Assembly: GCA_946408175.1 (NCBI GenBank)
Contig: CAMJRB010000001.1
Coordinates: forward strand, 4,867 to 36,866
Length of the DNA: 32,000 nt
Direction of reading: 5' to 3'
From: an uncultured Holosporaceae bacterium
GTDB taxonomy: Bacteria > Pseudomonadota > Alphaproteobacteria > RUG11792
Positions 4,689-31,907 of this stretch are shown here, piece after piece. Both the position numbers and the translations under genes were made by a program. Each line of letters begins with the position of its first letter. Positions within the stretch are counted from its first letter, which is position 1. A model generated the notes under the pieces. That model worked only from the letters and a program-made list of their open reading frames with translations, ran no database searches and was not told the DNA's origin.

Positions 4689-5046
4689 TTTAATAATATA
4701 TTAATTATTTAAATATAATTCATATTATATACCAAAATAGCTATATAGTCACCTAGCATGGAATTAAACAAGTTGCTAAACAATAATCATACTATTTATA
4801 AATATAGCGTCTATCAAGAACAAGTAAAGAATATATAATTGTATTTCATACATAATATCAAAACAAGTAAATCATTAATTCGTTATATGCCAAACTGAGA
4901 TAATTAAAATTATACCAACCTATTATAATAATTATTTCAATAGTCAGTAAAATTGCAATTTACATTGTTTTTTTTATTATGATTAATGATTTTTTAATAT
5001 AATAGATATATTATCATATATGGATAATATATAGTTGAGGCTTCAT

Positions 5047-6297
5047 ATGGTAAAAAATTCCATAAAGTTTATTACTCCTTTCTTATTACTATGTAACTTT
5101 AGTATAGGATATAGTTCTGATTTAAAATTCGATAAGATTCTTTCAGATCGTGAGATTCATGATAACAATCCAGTCGAACTAATTAATGCTTTATTACCAC
5201 AATTAAAAACTGCAGAATACACAATGCAAAATATCATAAATACTATATTTAATGTTCAGAGTATGTATCAGATAATAAACAGTGATAATATTAATTTCTT
5301 ACGTAACATTAATACAACTTTAGATAATGATTGTCTAAAGGAATATTTTATTTCTCATGGAGGTTTAAACTCTACAACATTTAATAATATTATGAATAAT
5401 GCGAGAAATTTTCAATATAACAAATTGAAAAATCCATCATTGAATGAGCAAAAGTTTTATTTATCATATAAACCAATGCTTAATGTATTATGTAATAAGA
5501 CGATAAATGATATTATATATACATTGAAATTACATTATGCCTTTTTTTTAGAAGCTTACACAGGAGATAATATTAGTCAATTAAAATTAGAAATTTTGAA
5601 AAAAATAAATAATTATCTAAATTCTTACTACAAGCCAGATTGTGCATTTTCCAACGGAATTCCAGATAAATATGCTATCAAAGAAGAAATATTAGACAAA
5701 TACAAGGCTGATTTACTTAAAATATTCTTTAATATTGCAAAAAAAATACCTTTACATGAAATGTTGAATGTAGAGGAAAATTTCTTTGATAATTGTTATA
5801 CAAAAATAACCAAAACACAAGGTGACGAACAACTAGAAAACATATATCAGTTTTGTGAAATGATTATTTCATCGCAACATCAAATATTCCATTACTGTAA
5901 TGATAATAAGATATTGCAAAAGATAATTAACATTTTGAATTTATCTGTTGTACAAAAATATTTTTCTAACAATTATTTTTTCTTTGCACAAAATAAAAAA
6001 TTTATAGAAAAAATCCACAGAGAACGCAATGAATCAGTTAATAAGAATGATTTTAAGACATATCAAGTATTCATTAGTACGAAAGCAAAACAGTGGGTGG
6101 ATACATGCTATAAATATCTGGAAGATTTGAAAAAATTACATAATAGCCCACGTTTTATAAAGGCCCCTAGTACAATGCTTAAATATCAAATAATAGAAAA
6201 GACACTGAGCAAATATTTGTCTATGTTACAAAAAAACTGCGCTGATGTTGATTCTACTGCATTACAAGTACAGTTTAACAAAATTTGTGAGGAGTAA
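5047..6297 (+). CDS. Hypothetical secreted protein, orphan and Cys-containing
   Basis: The long ORF begins at TTG 5035, but ATG 5047 is preceded by GAGG six nt upstream. The N-terminus MVKNSIKFITPFLLLCNFSIGYS looks like a Sec signal peptide. I recognise no family motif. The protein is N/K/I-rich and predicted to be mostly helical. Confidence 0.6.
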   Translation: MVKNSIKFITPFLLLCNFSIGYSSDLKFDKILSDREIHDNNPVELINALLPQLKTAEYTMQNIINTIFNVQSMYQIINSDNINFLRNINTTLDNDCLKEYFISHGGLNSTTFNNIMNNARNFQYNKLKNPSLNEQKFYLSYKPMLNVLCNKTINDIIYTLKLHYAFFLEAYTGDNISQLKLEILKKINNYLNSYYKPDCAFSNGIPDKYAIKEEILDKYKADLLKIFFNIAKKIPLHEMLNVEENFFDNCYTKITKTQGDEQLENIYQFCEMIISSQHQIFHYCNDNKILQKIINILNLSVVQKYFSNNYFFFAQNKKFIEKIHRERNESVNKNDFKTYQVFISTKAKQWVDTCYKYLEDLKKLHNSPRFIKAPSTMLKYQIIEKTLSKYLSMLQKNCADVDSTALQVQFNKICEE

Positions 6298-26517: not shown

Positions 26518-26595
26518 CGGGAAGTGGCGCAGTCTGGCTAGCGTATTTGTTTAGGGTACAAAGGGTCGGAGGTTCGAATCCTCTCTTCCCGACCA
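26518..26595 (+). tRNA. tRNA-Pro, apparent anticodon AGG, with encoded CCA end
   Basis: Hand-folded cloverleaf. Acceptor stem CGGGAAG/CTTCCCG with discriminator A and CCA. D arm GCGC-AGTCTGGCTA-GCGT. Anticodon stem TTTGT/ACAAA with loop TTAGGGT. Variable loop GGGTC. T arm GGAGG-TTCGAAT-CCTCT. The overall sequence is close to bacterial tRNA-Pro (C1-G72, A73, G35 G36 G37). Confidence 0.9.
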
Positions 26596-29298: not shown

Positions 29299-31620
29299 TT
29301 ATTTTAATAATTCGTATTGAAACATCTTCTCAGTAATATGTTTTTTATAATAATCTTTTAATTTACAACGTAATGTTTGTAATGATCCATTAAGTTCTGG
29401 ATAATTATAACTATACTTGCTATTTTTATTATTTGTTGTCACATCAGTTTGTATATACTTAGTATTGAGCTCTTTAGTAATTTGATATACTCCATAAGTA
29501 CATTTTGGATTGTACTCTTTTGTGTCTTTGGCTTCTTTTAGAATTGTGGTCCAAAGAGCAATTAACTCCTCGTCATCACTGGTCAACTGCATTTGTTTTA
29601 AAGTATTAGAAGCTAATGTATTAGTATCAAAACATAGTTCATTACGATAAAATCTATTATTAGAACCTTCAAAAGACAAACATTTATTTTGATTAGAAAG
29701 ACAAGTATATATAAAACAGCATTTTAAAAAATCACTATCCTTAGTATACGCATTGCCTCCATCTGCAGTGGTAGCATAAACATCCTTTTCATACCAATTG
29801 TCCAATGGTATATATTTAGCAACCCACAATGGTAATTTCTCCAAAAAATTGTCAGAACGTAAAAAAAAGCCATTTCCATCATATTCAGCACATCTTAGTA
29901 AGTGACGAGAGAGTGGAGTACAATTAAAAGAAGATGCTCTTATATATCCTATAATATTTTCATTATATATTTTTTTTACTCTTATACCAGTCGTATCTCG
30001 TCTCTCTTCTCCACTGAAATCACAACAAATACCATCTTCGCTATCTGTGTCAAAACTTCTTTTATCATATAGAGATTGACTAAAAAGCGAATAACATTTT
30101 TTTATTATACAATTTACTTTCAGGTCATCAATTTTATTATCAATAATGTCAAAACAATTCAGTTGTATTTCTGTATAATTATCATCTTCATTTTGCCATA
30201 AAATACAAGATACAGCAGATGGAGTAGCATGAAAATGTTGTCTGTTGCATAAAAATCCATCAATAAATTTTTTATTTGATAGATTACACCATTTAAAATA
30301 TTTTACTGGACTGAATAAAACATAACTATCATATTTTTTTCTTAAATAATATTGCCAACCAGACCATATAAATAAATTAGCTAAATCGTTACCTGCTGTT
30401 CCGTTTATGTTATTTGTTCTATTTTCTGCCTTTTTGAATTCCTGAGCAATATAACAATTTCCTTTTCTTTTAACATTTTTTGAATTATCAACAGTCATAT
30501 CTCGAAAAGGTGGATTTTCAAATAATATTACAGTACAGTTTGGATCATCTATATACTGTTTGATTATCTTATTTTCTAGGAATTCTTTACTTAATGCATC
30601 AGCGTTTAGCACTATGCCATTTCCATACTCAACATGCTGTTCAGTTGGAGGAATAATATCTCTAACTAAATCTCCTATTCTTTCACTTAATACTTTATAC
30701 TCATAATATTCATAAGTTGATACAATACAATGTGATATTAAATCATCACCATTTTTATCCTTTAGCCCTATTAATGCCTCTTCAAGATTTCCAGTTCCTG
30801 CGCATCTGTCAAGAATAATATAATCATTTGGCGTTCCATCATTACCATTTGGAATATTATTAACAGCCCTTAAAACAAGTTCAGCTGCCTTTTTAGCATA
30901 AGGCATGGGAGTATAAAATGCTCCCAAATCTTTTTTAGATAATCTATCATTAAGACAGTCCATAAGATATTTAAATTTCTCATTTGTCTTCTGTGTATAT
31001 GGACGAATATAATTTTTGAAATGTTTGGGTTCTCTAATTTCTCCAGTGATTTGTATTTGTGTTCCATTATTATCTCCTAGAAAATCCCCCTTACTAGCAT
31101 TTGGTTTTTCTGTGTAATACCTTTTTGCCCAACCAATAATACAATTCTCATCAATGTCTATCGGCATATACATCTCTTGTTCAGGTTTTTGTCCTTTGAG
31201 AATTTTCTTTATTGCTGAAGCATGCAAATCTTTTGAATAATTAAATATTGCAGGTTCTTCAGTAATACTACTAGGAATAAAACCCTTATTATTCTTAGAA
31301 GCTGCACCGATGTAAACTTTATGTATATCATTAAAGTAATCTTGAGATTTATACAAATATATTGTTGTATTATTTAGATCGATTAATAAAATATTAGCTG
31401 GAACAGATTCTCCTTTGATTCTCATTTTAGATAAATACTTAATTGCTTGAAATAATACTGCAGATGGATTTGAAATAGTGAGTTTAAATTCGAATAAGTT
31501 TCCATTATATACACCATCAGTATTATCAATAAGTACATTATTATCTTGATAAGGAATACCATAGTTTTCAAAAAATGCTATTTGTCCTTCTCGTTCAGAT
31601 TTATATATTATCTTTTCCAT
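29299..31620 (-). CDS. Putative single-chain Type IIL/IIG (MmeI-like) restriction-modification enzyme: N-terminal PD-ExK-like nuclease motif, gamma-class N6-adenine DNA methyltransferase, and a C-terminal putative target-recognition region
   Basis: 773 aa. Residues 35-46 read D-GVYNGNLF-E-F-K and are followed by FQAIKY. Methyltransferase motif X is LGAFYTP (232-238), motif I is ILDRCAGTGN (269-278), and motif IV is FENPPF (367-372). About 300 aa of C-terminal sequence carry no motif I recognise. Confidence 0.7.
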   Translation of the reverse strand: MEKIIYKSEREGQIAFFENYGIPYQDNNVLIDNTDGVYNGNLFEFKLTISNPSAVLFQAIKYLSKMRIKGESVPANILLIDLNNTTIYLYKSQDYFNDIHKVYIGAASKNNKGFIPSSITEEPAIFNYSKDLHASAIKKILKGQKPEQEMYMPIDIDENCIIGWAKRYYTEKPNASKGDFLGDNNGTQIQITGEIREPKHFKNYIRPYTQKTNEKFKYLMDCLNDRLSKKDLGAFYTPMPYAKKAAELVLRAVNNIPNGNDGTPNDYIILDRCAGTGNLEEALIGLKDKNGDDLISHCIVSTYEYYEYKVLSERIGDLVRDIIPPTEQHVEYGNGIVLNADALSKEFLENKIIKQYIDDPNCTVILFENPPFRDMTVDNSKNVKRKGNCYIAQEFKKAENRTNNINGTAGNDLANLFIWSGWQYYLRKKYDSYVLFSPVKYFKWCNLSNKKFIDGFLCNRQHFHATPSAVSCILWQNEDDNYTEIQLNCFDIIDNKIDDLKVNCIIKKCYSLFSQSLYDKRSFDTDSEDGICCDFSGEERRDTTGIRVKKIYNENIIGYIRASSFNCTPLSRHLLRCAEYDGNGFFLRSDNFLEKLPLWVAKYIPLDNWYEKDVYATTADGGNAYTKDSDFLKCCFIYTCLSNQNKCLSFEGSNNRFYRNELCFDTNTLASNTLKQMQLTSDDEELIALWTTILKEAKDTKEYNPKCTYGVYQITKELNTKYIQTDVTTNNKNSKYSYNYPELNGSLQTLRCKLKDYYKKHITEKMFQYELLK

Positions 31621-31907
31621 TTTACTCTTTCTCCATTACTGTTTAGATATTGTTTTTTACTTAATATAAAACTACTAATATTTGTCAGCCAATACAAATT
31701 ATTATTAAATTGTAAGGTTGCACATAAACATGTAAATAATTTGCTGATACCTTTCATTAAATAAAATAAAAATAATTTTTTAATACAGTAAATTAAAACT
31801 TTACAAAAGAATATACAAATATTATTTGTAATATTAAAAATGTTTATTGATAATAATTGAAGTTTTAGAGTTTTTATATTTAAAATTACTTGAGAATTAT
31901 TTTCGTA

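What the first reader, a model, noticed from the sequence alone, without database searches (positions are those of the whole stretch)
29299..31620. Stand-alone nuclease-methyltransferase fusion with MmeI-like Type IIL/IIG architecture in a reduced endosymbiont-type genome
The 773-aa ORF has an unambiguous gamma-class N6-adenine methyltransferase core in the order X-I-IV: LGAFYTP, then ILDRCAGTGN, then ILFENPPF at nt 30505-30516. Its first ~60 residues carry TDGVYNGNLFEFK...LFQAIKY (nt ~31483-31518), a D-x8-E-x-K motif followed by QAxxY. This resembles the catalytic nuclease motif I recall at the N-terminus of MmeI-family enzymes (D-x9-E-x-K followed by QAL-Y). The remaining ~300 C-terminal residues (about 470-773) could serve as the target-recognition and C-terminal helical modules. 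At 773 aa the protein is clearly shorter than MmeI (~919 aa), so it may be a compact, divergent subfamily. It is monocistronic and is bounded by 328 nt and more than 380 nt of ORF-free AT-rich DNA. Its neighbours are housekeeping genes, and no integrase or transposase is visible. Its composition matches the host, which argues for long residence. A self-contained defence or epigenetic module is unexpected in a genome this streamlined.
Basis: partly seen in the sequence, partly recalled or inferred. Interest (0 to 1): 0.7.

Follow-up and report, generated by a model that had tools for sequence, protein, structure and literature searches.

The report
Unannotated single-chain restriction-methylase candidate
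The 773-residue gene is real and most likely encodes a one-protein restriction-modification enzyme (DNA cutter, adenine methylase and DNA reader in one chain); the type is ordinary, but its widespread, mobile family is missed by the standard annotation libraries.

Summary
The ORF at 29299-31620 (-) and every quoted motif and coordinate are confirmed. The protein belongs to a large unnamed family (>3,600 clusters at 90% identity, about 750 at 50%). The family occurs in Clostridia, Bacteroidales, streptococci, lactobacillus plasmids, mycoplasmas, Patescibacteria, a Deianiraeaceae MAG and some phages. Pfam, NCBIfam, PADLOC and PDB sequence searches do not reach it, and deposited records mostly call it "hypothetical protein".

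An AlphaFold model matches BpuSI (Type IIG), MmeI (Type IIL) and DrdV best, ahead of solitary gamma-class adenine methylases. The N-terminal E9...D35-x8-E44-x-K46...Q58-x3-Y62 motif set (RecB/HsdR type) is kept in about 95% of relatives down to 32% identity. It sits on an alpha-beta-beta-alpha-beta-beta predicted topology. Fold searches with that domain alone found no significant match.

Residues 471-600 are hypervariable between otherwise about 70% identical relatives, as expected of a target-recognition domain. No partner gene is conserved.

Best reading: a compact, stand-alone Type IIG/IIL-like enzyme from a mobile family. It is not a sequence-detectable member of the MmeI family. The architecture claim is supported. 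The claims of surprise and long residence are weaker. Activity, recognition site and strand modification are untested.

The parts
29299..31620 (-). Complete 773-aa ORF (stop codon included): candidate single-chain restriction-modification enzyme
31171..31620 (-). Residues 1-150: putative PD-(D/E)xK (RecB/HsdR-type) nuclease domain. Motifs are E9, D35, E44-x-K46 and Q58-x3-Y62. D35-K46 maps to nt 31518-31483.
   Evidence: Motif conservation. Domain model has pLDDT 82.5 and pTM 0.81, with helix 9-20, strands 36-38 and 41-46, helix 52-68, strands 76-81 and 86-91. Weak, non-significant Foldseek hits are enriched for PD-(D/E)xK proteins. QxxxY motif: PMC2475608.
30925..31170 (-). Residues 151-232: conserved connector between nuclease and methyltransferase, partly helical, low model confidence. 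About half the length of MmeI's 145-residue helical spacer.
   Evidence: (84% mean pairwise identity in the close set)
30211..30924 (-). Residues 233-470: gamma-class N6-adenine methyltransferase core. Motif X is FYTP 235-238, motif I is DRCAGTG 271-277, motif IV is NPPF 369-372 (nt 30516-30505). A variable loop spans 375-412.
29821..30210 (-). Residues 471-600: hypervariable beta-rich segment, the putative target-recognition domain
   Evidence: 38% mean pairwise identity here against 68-84% in the flanking domains of the same 38 proteins; beta strands 469-507 and 556-588.
29302..29820 (-). Residues 601-773: conserved, mostly helical C-terminal domain (NQNKCLSF...ELCFD, YGVYQI motifs), function unassigned. 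Larger than MmeI's 94-residue C-terminal bundle.
31621..31740 (-). 5' leader: GGAG Shine-Dalgarno about 9-13 nt before the ATG, and a TTTACA-16-TACAAT promoter-like site at 31736-31709
   Evidence: Promoter-like sites are not more frequent than in shuffled sequence (32 found against 28.3 expected), so this is only compatible with independent expression.

Best explanation
The gene encodes a compact, self-contained Type IIG (single-polypeptide, 'IIC/IIL-like') restriction-modification enzyme. The proposed domain order is: an N-terminal RecB/HsdR-type PD-(D/E)xK nuclease (about 1-150), a short connector (151-232), a gamma-class N6-adenine methyltransferase (233-470), a variable target-recognition domain (about 471-600), and a conserved C-terminal domain (601-773).

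Inferred mechanism: the recognition domain and the methyltransferase clamp a short specific DNA sequence. On host DNA the target adenine is flipped out and methylated with SAM. On unmethylated foreign DNA the tethered nuclease cuts at a fixed short distance to one side of the site, probably after two enzyme molecules pair, because there is only one catalytic site per chain.

The gene belongs to a large mobile family that swaps recognition domains. In this AT-rich reduced genome it is an intact, host-adapted single-gene copy, kept either for defence or through the self-preserving (addictive) behaviour of restriction-modification genes.

Shown here: the ORF, the motifs, family-wide conservation, the mosaic variability, the stand-alone status and the structural resemblance of the model. 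Inferred only: catalytic activities, cleavage geometry, dimerisation and the role in the host.
For: - The full-length AlphaFold model (pLDDT 75.8) matches BpuSI 3s1s (E 1.3e-7), MmeI 5hr4 (2.9e-7) and DrdV 7lo5 (5e-6) best. Solitary gamma-class adenine methylases (M.BseCI, CamA, M.TaqI) and Type I HsdM follow.
- hhalign aligns motifs X, I and IV of the family profile with those of a Pfam-certified HSDR_N_2+N6_Mtase enzyme (E 1.9e-4).
- In 39 representatives at 32-58% identity: D35 37/39, E44 36/39, K46 38/39, Q58 39/39, Y62 37/39, E9 34/39.
- 68 of 71 genomic and viral copies keep D...ExK...QxxxY.
- QxxxY is a functionally tested RecB-family nuclease motif (PMC2475608).
- The predicted topology places D35 at the start of one strand and ExK at the end of the next, followed by a helix. 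This is how the MmeI nuclease is described.
- Residues 471-600 average 38% identity where the flanks average 68-84%.
- No conserved neighbour gene was found across 82 loci.
- In other genomes the gene lies among GmrSD, EcoRI-type methylase, HsdM/HsdS, other Type IIG genes, HTH regulators and transposases.
- The window copy keeps every invariant residue. Its 21 deviations at conserved columns are mostly AT-biased replacements and none is catalytic.
Against: - No sequence library recognises either domain. Pfam, NCBIfam, PADLOC and PDB sequence searches are all empty. N6_Mtase gives only weak hits in 4 of 39 members.
- Profile-profile comparison with a canonical Type IIG family is weak (E 0.027). 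It finds nothing for the N-terminal domains.
- Full-model E-values to Type IIG enzymes are only 10-100 times better than to solitary methylases. TM-scores are low (about 0.2) and pTM is 0.50.
- One phage copy sits where phages usually carry orphan anti-restriction methylases.
- No activity, methylation motif or expression data exist.
Confidence: 0.68

Rival explanations
1. A solitary (orphan) N6-adenine DNA methyltransferase. On this reading the N-terminal domain is not an active nuclease but a DNA-binding or regulatory module. The enzyme would serve epigenetic marking, or anti-restriction protection in phages.
For: - Structural matches to the solitary methylases CamA, M.BseCI and M.TaqI are nearly as good as to Type IIG enzymes.
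- The N-terminal domain has no significant fold or profile match to any nuclease.
- The L087 phage copy lies between a replication initiator and terminase/portal, a classic position for phage orphan methylases.
- UniProt calls the phage homolog simply 'N-6 DNA Methylase'.
Against: - The complete E...D...ExK...QxxxY set is conserved in about 95% of family members, including phage copies, down to 32% identity. That is hard to explain without catalysis.
- The few members that lost the motif (P0145, P0186, P0193) are exceptions.
- Weak fold hits of the domain are dominated by PD-(D/E)xK proteins: DUF820, TT1808, LACV endonuclease, SPARDA, RecU, HincII, Cas4-like.
- The genomic neighbourhoods are restriction/defence islands.
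Confidence: 0.17
2. The window copy is a decaying or functionless remnant of a horizontally acquired mobile gene. It would still be an open frame but no longer contribute to the biology of the reduced genome.
For: - The family is mobile: plasmids, phages, transposase-flanked copies.
- The window copy has the second-highest number of deviations at conserved columns in its alignment (21 of 319).
- It is flanked by long AT-rich non-coding DNA.
- The Deianiraeaceae homolog is not syntenic.
Against: - A 2.3-kb frame at 28% GC with no stop codon, all invariant catalytic and structural residues intact, a good GGAG ribosome-binding site and host-like GC3 argues for continued purifying selection.
- The excess of deviations is expected for the most divergent sequence of an unbalanced alignment, and it follows the host's AT bias.
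Confidence: 0.1
3. The methyltransferase/specificity subunit of a multi-gene defence system (BREX PglX-like, or a YeeA-type MmeI relative that works with a separate helicase and nuclease).
For: MmeI relatives that work with flanking helicase and GIY-YIG genes exist (PMC2731913). Members of this family often lie in defence islands.
Against: - No gene is conserved next to the family across 82 loci from many phyla.
- PADLOC finds nothing.
- In the window the gene has only housekeeping neighbours and empty flanks.
- The YeeA-type relatives lack the nuclease motif, whereas this family keeps it.
Confidence: 0.05

Closest known systems
MmeI family (Type IIL restriction-modification enzymes; MmeI, 919 aa, PDB 5HR4)
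   Same: - Same domain order: N-terminal PD-(D/E)xK nuclease, spacer, gamma-class N6A methyltransferase, recognition domain, C-terminal helical region.
- One catalytic D...ExK site near the N-terminus, with D at the start of a strand and ExK at the end of the next.
- No flanking second methyltransferase or other conserved partner.
- A conserved framework with a swappable recognition domain.
- Second-best structural match, E 2.9e-7.
   Different: - No sequence-detectable homology: none of the five MmeI Pfam models hits any of 39 family members, even at E<=10.
- D-x8-ExK rather than D-x9-ExK.
- 773 against 919 aa.
- Connector about 80 against 145 residues.
- Variable recognition segment about 130 against 205 residues.
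- Conserved C-terminal domain about 170 against 94 residues.
- Single-strand modification and the two-site requirement are unknown.
BpuSI (Type IIG, 878 aa, GGGAC 10/14, PDB 3S1S)
   Same: Best structural match of the full model (E 1.3e-7, 600 aligned columns). A single chain with N-terminal nuclease, helical connector, gamma-class methyltransferase and recognition domain.
   Different: Only 13% identity, and TM-score 0.2 because the domain arrangement differs or is uncertain. No sequence-profile link. Whether cleavage is at about one helical turn, as in BpuSI, is only a guess from the short connector.
Canonical HSDR_N_2 + N6_Mtase (+Eco57I) single-chain enzymes of about 790-820 aa ('N-6 DNA methylase'; e.g. 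L007 10902-13268, family A4)
   Same: - Same size and same order of nuclease, methyltransferase and C-terminal specificity region.
- The nuclease has D...(D/E)xK followed about 12 residues later by QxxxY (DTK...LQAVSYA against EFK...LFQAIKY).
- MTase motifs X, I and IV align.
- One such gene lies next to a member of this family.
   Different: These are recognised by Pfam (PF13588, PF02384, PF07669). The family studied here is not. Profile-profile similarity is marginal for the methyltransferase (E 0.027) and absent for the nuclease domain.
RecB-family nuclease domain of Type I HsdR (EcoR124I)
   Same: Motif set PD...(D/E)xK plus QxxxY in the following helix. Q and Y are needed for efficient cleavage in EcoR124I (PMC2475608).
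   Different: HsdR couples this nuclease to an ATP-dependent translocase and to separate M and S subunits. Here there is no ATPase and all functions are in one chain.

Membership tests
Type IIG / IIC single-polypeptide restriction-modification enzymes (functional class) | Nuclease catalytic motif (PD...(D/E)xK) in the same chain as the methyltransferase, conserved among homologs | tested here: met
   D35-x8-E44-x-K46 is invariant in 38 close relatives. It is kept in 36-38 of 39 representatives at 32-58% identity and in 68 of 71 locus-encoded copies.
Type IIG / IIC single-polypeptide restriction-modification enzymes (functional class) | N-terminal domain adopts the restriction-endonuclease-like (PD-(D/E)xK) fold | tested here: inconclusive
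Type IIG / IIC single-polypeptide restriction-modification enzymes (functional class) | Gamma-class N6-adenine methyltransferase core (motif order X, I, IV, with the recognition domain C-terminal) | tested here: met
   FYTP 235-238, DRCAGTG 271-277 and NPPF 369-372. They align with motifs X, I and IV of a Pfam N6_Mtase protein. Structural matches are to gamma-class enzymes.
Type IIG / IIC single-polypeptide restriction-modification enzymes (functional class) | Target-recognition domain in the same chain, varying between otherwise similar homologs | tested here: met
   Residues 471-600 show 38% mean pairwise identity against 68-84% for the other domains.
Type IIG / IIC single-polypeptide restriction-modification enzymes (functional class) | SAM-dependent or SAM-stimulated cleavage at a fixed distance from a specific site, and methylation of that site | not testable with these tools
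   Needs enzyme assays or methylome data.
MmeI family (Type IIL) | Sequence similarity to MmeI along the whole length (Morgan et al. used E<1e-20; Pfam MmeI_N, MmeI_hel, MmeI_Mtase, MmeI_TRD, MmeI_C) | tested here: not met
   No Pfam hit at E<=1 for the protein. No MmeI_* hit in 39 relatives at E<=10. No PDB sequence hit with single sequence or profile. The criterion is from PMC2731913.
MmeI family (Type IIL) | Five-domain order: nuclease, helical spacer, methyltransferase, TRD, C-terminal helical region | tested here: met
   Shown by the model's secondary structure and the conservation map compared with the MmeI domain limits. The domain lengths differ.
MmeI family (Type IIL) | Modification of only one DNA strand, and no second methyltransferase gene | tested here: inconclusive
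   No second methyltransferase is present in the window or conserved next to homologs. Strand modification itself is not testable here.
Pfam N6_Mtase (PF02384) / Eco57I (PF07669) | Score at or above the curated gathering threshold | tested here: not met
   The window protein has no hit. Of 39 relatives, 4 give sub-threshold N6_Mtase hits (best E 0.0094).
RecB-family / HsdR-type PD-(D/E)xK nucleases | QxxxY motif in the helix after the (D/E)xK strand | tested here: met
   Q58-A-I-K-Y62 lies 12 residues after K46. Q is kept in 39/39 and Y in 37/39. The motif definition is from PMC2475608.
RecB-family / HsdR-type PD-(D/E)xK nucleases | Profile similarity to HSDR_N/HSDR_N_2, Cas4 or related Pfam families | tested here: not met
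   There was only one weak Cas_Cas4 hit in 39 members (E 0.062). hhalign against the HSDR_N_2 domain profile was not significant.
Multi-gene defence systems with a methyltransferase subunit (BREX PglX, YeeA-type) | Conserved partner genes next to the methyltransferase gene | tested here: not met
   No PADLOC hit. No neighbour is conserved outside closely related streptococci.

The most novel reading that the evidence does not exclude
This protein would represent a previously uncharacterised, very widespread lineage of unusually compact single-chain restriction-modification enzymes. The lineage has about 750 clusters at 50% identity, spans many phyla and also occurs on plasmids and phages. It is invisible to Pfam, NCBIfam and PADLOC and so is uncounted in defence-system censuses. 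It has its own nuclease and C-terminal domain types and a naturally shuffled recognition module, so it could supply many new specificities and a small scaffold for engineering.
Probability: 0.4. Interest if true: 0.55.

Novelty: new member of a known kind. Interest (0 to 1): 0.4.

Why it matters
For the genome itself the finding is modest. It is a single-gene restriction-modification module in a reduced AT-rich bacterium. It shows that such genomes still take up and keep mobile defence or selfish genes, as is already known for mycoplasmas and some Rickettsiales.

The family is the more useful result. Thousands of intact, conserved proteins with a nuclease-methylase-reader layout are labelled 'hypothetical' and are missed by the HMM libraries used to count defence systems. 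A family model and one biochemical characterisation would correct annotation in gut, rumen, oral and symbiont genomes. They would also explain orphan 6mA motifs in methylome studies and add a compact (about 760 aa) scaffold with naturally exchangeable recognition domains to the Type IIG/IIL toolbox.

Tried and rejected
Searches that found nothing:
- Pfam, NCBIfam and PADLOC on the protein, and Pfam on ten distant or long relatives.
- PDB sequence search with the single sequence, the family profile and the N-terminal profile.
- Literature searches by accession, by Deianiraea, and by Type IIG with S. mitis or Rickettsiales.
- The supplement of the MmeI paper, sought for an alignment to compare, is not held.

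Searches that could not be run or completed:
- Exact look-ups of the window protein and of the neighbouring peptidase, to identify the source contig, were not on record. The host organism therefore remains unnamed. An affiliation with Rickettsiales or Deianiraeaceae is only suggested by a 48%-identical homolog in such a MAG.

Comparisons that were not significant:
- hhalign of the N-terminal profile against the HSDR_N_2 domain of a canonical Type IIG family, in global and local mode.

Ideas considered and rejected:
- BREX/PglX-like or YeeA-like multi-gene system: no conserved neighbours.
- Remnants of partner genes in the flanks: tblastn of all neighbour ORFs from 82 loci hit nothing there.
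- An obligatory metal-binding cysteine cluster in the C-terminal domain: the cysteines are conserved only in the close clade.
- Amelioration as proof of long residence: the family's genes are AT-rich in general.
Full report
**1. Observation**

The ORF is exactly as described: 29299..31620, minus strand, ATG start, 773 aa. From the coordinates, D35-K46 (TDGVYNGNLFEFK) occupies nt 31518-31483 and NPPF (residues 369-372) occupies nt 30516-30505. LGAFYTP (232-238) and ILDRCAGTGN (269-278) precede NPPF, so the motif order is X-I-IV.

The flanks are 328 nt (17% GC) and 380 nt to the window end (18% GC), with only short ORFs. tblastn with every neighbour ORF from 82 homolog-bearing loci finds no gene remnant in them.

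The neighbours are housekeeping genes: an M16 peptidase, an RlpA-like DPBB protein, an M15 peptidase, S12/S7, EF-G/EF-Tu, the ribosomal-protein operon, L17, BamE, a Mur ligase and ATP synthase a/b. There is no integrase or transposase. The gene's GC3 of 0.161 is inside the host range of 0.11-0.22. A GGAG ribosome-binding site precedes the ATG. Promoter-like hexamers occur upstream but are no more frequent than in shuffled sequence.

**2. What the libraries say**

Nothing in Pfam, NCBIfam or PADLOC matches at E<=1. No PDB chain matches by sequence, with either the protein or a family profile. The methyltransferase is therefore not 'unambiguous' to standard annotation. In four lactobacillus plasmids the homolog is annotated 'hypothetical protein', including by NCBI's pipeline.

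**3. The family**

A word-indexed search found more than 3,663 clusters (90% identity) with E<=1e-3. The best 120 are all 56-65% identical, mostly 740-790 aa (three are longer or shorter), carry no Pfam domain and, apart from one JGI 'hypothetical protein', have no name. An exhaustive profile search of 1.84 billion 50%-identity representatives found 748 proteins at E<=1e-3 and 273 at E<=1e-30. The family is therefore well delimited and does not bleed into the millions of ordinary N6-methylases.

In one-genome-per-species data it occurs in the following groups:
- Clostridia, Lachnospiraceae and Ruminococcaceae
- Prevotella and other Bacteroidales
- the Streptococcus mitis/pneumoniae group
- Limosilactobacillus and Companilactobacillus
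- Mesomycoplasma ovipneumoniae
- Collinsella
- Synergistaceae, Elusimicrobiota and several Patescibacteria
- a Candidatus Deianiraeaceae MAG (L029, 48% identity, 25% GC)

Eight IMG/VR viral contigs carry it. In L087 it lies between a replication initiator and terminase, portal and head genes. BFVD holds a member from 'Siphoviridae sp. ctnpt50', named 'N-6 DNA Methylase'.

Across 39 representatives, Pfam gives only sub-threshold N6_Mtase hits in 4 members (best E 0.0094) and one Cas4 hit (E 0.062). It gives no MmeI model at all.

**4. Anatomy**

Conservation mapping on 38 close relatives gives these mean pairwise identities:

| Residues | Mean pairwise identity |
|---|---|
| 1-150 | 69% |
| 151-232 | 84% |
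| 233-470 | 68% |
| 471-600 | 38% |
| 601-773 | 71% |

This mosaic, a conserved framework with one hypervariable beta-rich block, is what a swappable target-recognition domain looks like. A second variable, indel-rich loop follows NPPY (375-412).

The AlphaFold model has mean pLDDT 75.8 and pTM 0.50, meaning confident domains but uncertain mutual arrangement. It shows an alpha/beta N-terminal domain, a poorly ordered and partly helical connector, a Rossmann-like core, a beta-rich 470-590 region and a helical C-terminus.

**5. Methyltransferase**

Foldseek of the full model against the PDB ranks the hits as follows:
- BpuSI, Type IIG (E 1.3e-7)
- MmeI, Type IIL (2.9e-7)
- DrdV (5e-6)
- then M.BseCI, CamA, PacII, M.TaqI and Type I HsdM

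hhalign of the family profile against a neighbouring, Pfam-certified HSDR_N_2+N6_Mtase protein aligns FYTP with FTP, DRCAGTG with DPAAGSG, and NPPY/F with NPPF (E 1.9e-4). Against that protein family's profile the signal is only E 0.027. I take a gamma-class N6-adenine methyltransferase as established, though a very divergent one. The window's NPPF (others have NPPY) is a normal variant of motif IV; this last point rests on my own knowledge of Type I HsdM enzymes.

**6. Nuclease**

In 39 representatives at 32-58% identity the conservation is D35 37/39, E44 36/39, K46 38/39, Q58 39/39, Y62 37/39, and E9 in the first helix 34/39. Of 71 copies read from genomic, plasmid and viral loci, 68 keep D...ExK...QxxxY. 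Two of the exceptions are truncated and one has Y replaced by N.

QxxxY after the ExK strand is the RecB-family motif shown by mutagenesis to matter for cleavage in EcoR124I (PMC2475608). The same pattern is visible in the canonical neighbour enzyme (DTK...LQAVSYA).

The separately modelled domain (1-160, pLDDT 82.5, pTM 0.81) has helix 9-20, strands 36-38 and 41-46, helix 52-68, and strands 76-81 and 86-91. D35 is at the start of one strand and ExK at the end of the next. That is how Morgan et al. describe the MmeI nuclease (D70, E80, K82).

Three results weaken this:
- Foldseek found no significant PDB match (best E 0.14).
- N-terminal profile searches of PDB sequences found nothing.
- hhalign against the HSDR_N_2 domain was not significant.

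The weak Foldseek list is nonetheless dominated by PD-(D/E)xK proteins. These include DUF820 and TT1808 putative nucleases, a 'restriction endonuclease domain' protein, bunyavirus cap-snatching endonucleases, the SPARDA nuclease, RecU/PrfA and HincII. In BFVD they include Cas4-like, RecB-family and 'PD-(D/E)XK nuclease superfamily' proteins. I rate the nuclease assignment probable, not proven.

**7. Context**

No gene is conserved next to the family across phyla. The only shared neighbours are synteny among closely related streptococci.

The neighbourhoods are typical defence or mobile islands:
- GmrSD-type enzymes (L001, and L029 in the Deianiraeaceae MAG)
- an EcoRI-type methylase
- Type I HsdM/HsdS
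- two other single-chain N6_Mtase enzymes
- IS4, IS1595 and ISL3 transposases
- small HTH proteins that could be controller proteins

Family genes are AT-rich (29-41% GC) even in a 53% GC flank (L062). The window copy's GC3 of 0.16 is nevertheless lower than that of its nearest relatives (0.26-0.43) and equals the host's.

The window copy deviates from the consensus at 21 of 319 conserved columns, mostly to N, K, F, Y or I, and never at a catalytic residue. An intact 2.3-kb frame at 28% GC argues for continuing selection.

**8. Mechanism (inferred)**

The recognition domain and methyltransferase bind a specific site. The methyltransferase flips and methylates the target adenine on host DNA. 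On unmodified DNA the tethered N-terminal nuclease cuts to one side. Because there is one catalytic site per chain, two molecules must cooperate for a double-strand break, as argued for MmeI.

The connector is about 80 residues against MmeI's 145-residue helical spacer. MmeI's spacer sets a 20/18 cut, and BpuSI cuts one helical turn closer at 10/14. I therefore guess at a short reach, but nothing here tests that.

**9. Comparison and membership**

The protein works like a Type IIG/IIL enzyme. It is not a member of the MmeI family by that family's own sequence criterion, nor of Pfam N6_Mtase, Eco57I or HSDR_N_2 at curated thresholds. Whether it is 'Type IIL' (lone-strand modification) cannot be decided without methylome or enzymology data.

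**10. Novelty and score**

The kind (single-chain restriction-modification enzyme) is well known, and such genes occur in other reduced genomes. The gene's presence here is a mild rather than a strong surprise.

What is noteworthy is that a family this large and this well conserved is unannotated and escapes Pfam, NCBIfam and PADLOC. I could not query REBASE, so prior characterisation cannot be excluded. I file it as a new member of a known kind, from an unannotated lineage, with interest 0.4.

Noticed in passing
window 26518-26595 (+): This is the only tRNA in the window. ARAGORN reads it as tRNA-Pro with anticodon AGG, and the loop reads T-T-A-G-G-G-T. An A34 proline tRNA is unusual for bacteria. 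Rfam confirms it is a tRNA (57 bits).
   Followed up: partly
L029 5972-7636 (-), Candidatus Deianiraeaceae MAG: A GmrSD-type (DUF262 + GmrSD_C) Type IV restriction enzyme gene lies about 2.8 kb from the family homolog in this 25% GC symbiont-type contig. Reduced Rickettsiales-like genomes can therefore carry small defence islands. The neighbours are not syntenic with the window.
   Followed up: partly
L008 7486-7845 (-); L012 7411-7851 (-); L091 4844-5179 (-): Small HTH_3/XRE-type regulator genes sit immediately upstream of the family gene and divergent from it in several unrelated genomes. They are possibly controller (C) proteins. None is present in the window.
   Followed up: no
L087 4473-6779 (+), IMG/VR contig: A family member that retains the nuclease motif lies inside a phage genome, between a replication-initiation gene and terminase, portal and head genes. 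L083 has a member flanked by two DNA methyltransferases and two HNH endonucleases.
   Followed up: partly
L062 2987-5261 (Agathobacter rectalis): The family gene is 35% GC while the flanking DNA is 53% GC. This suggests a recent horizontal arrival in that genome.
   Followed up: no
window 29302-29820 (-), residues 635, 640, 647, 663: Four cysteines (C-x4-C-x6-C-x15-C) are invariant or nearly so in the close clade. In the wider family they are kept in 28/39, 24/39, 22/39 and 36/39 members. They are therefore probably structural rather than an obligatory metal site.
   Followed up: partly
P0032 (1075 aa), P0067 (1106 aa), P0143 (1112 aa): These are longer relatives in which only about two thirds of the query is covered or the profile matches in two stretches. 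They could be duplications, fusions or assembly chimeras.
   Followed up: no
window 5035-6297 (+): A 420-aa ORF with a TTG start and a signal-peptide-like N-terminus has no Pfam match. It is the only sizeable gene scanned in the window without an assignment.
   Followed up: no
L007 10902-13268 and 14405-16831 (Limosilactobacillus portuensis): Two further single-chain N6_Mtase enzymes (one HSDR_N_2+N6_Mtase+Eco57I, one N6_Mtase+Methylase_S) lie directly downstream of the family gene. That makes three fused methylase-type genes in a row.
   Followed up: partly
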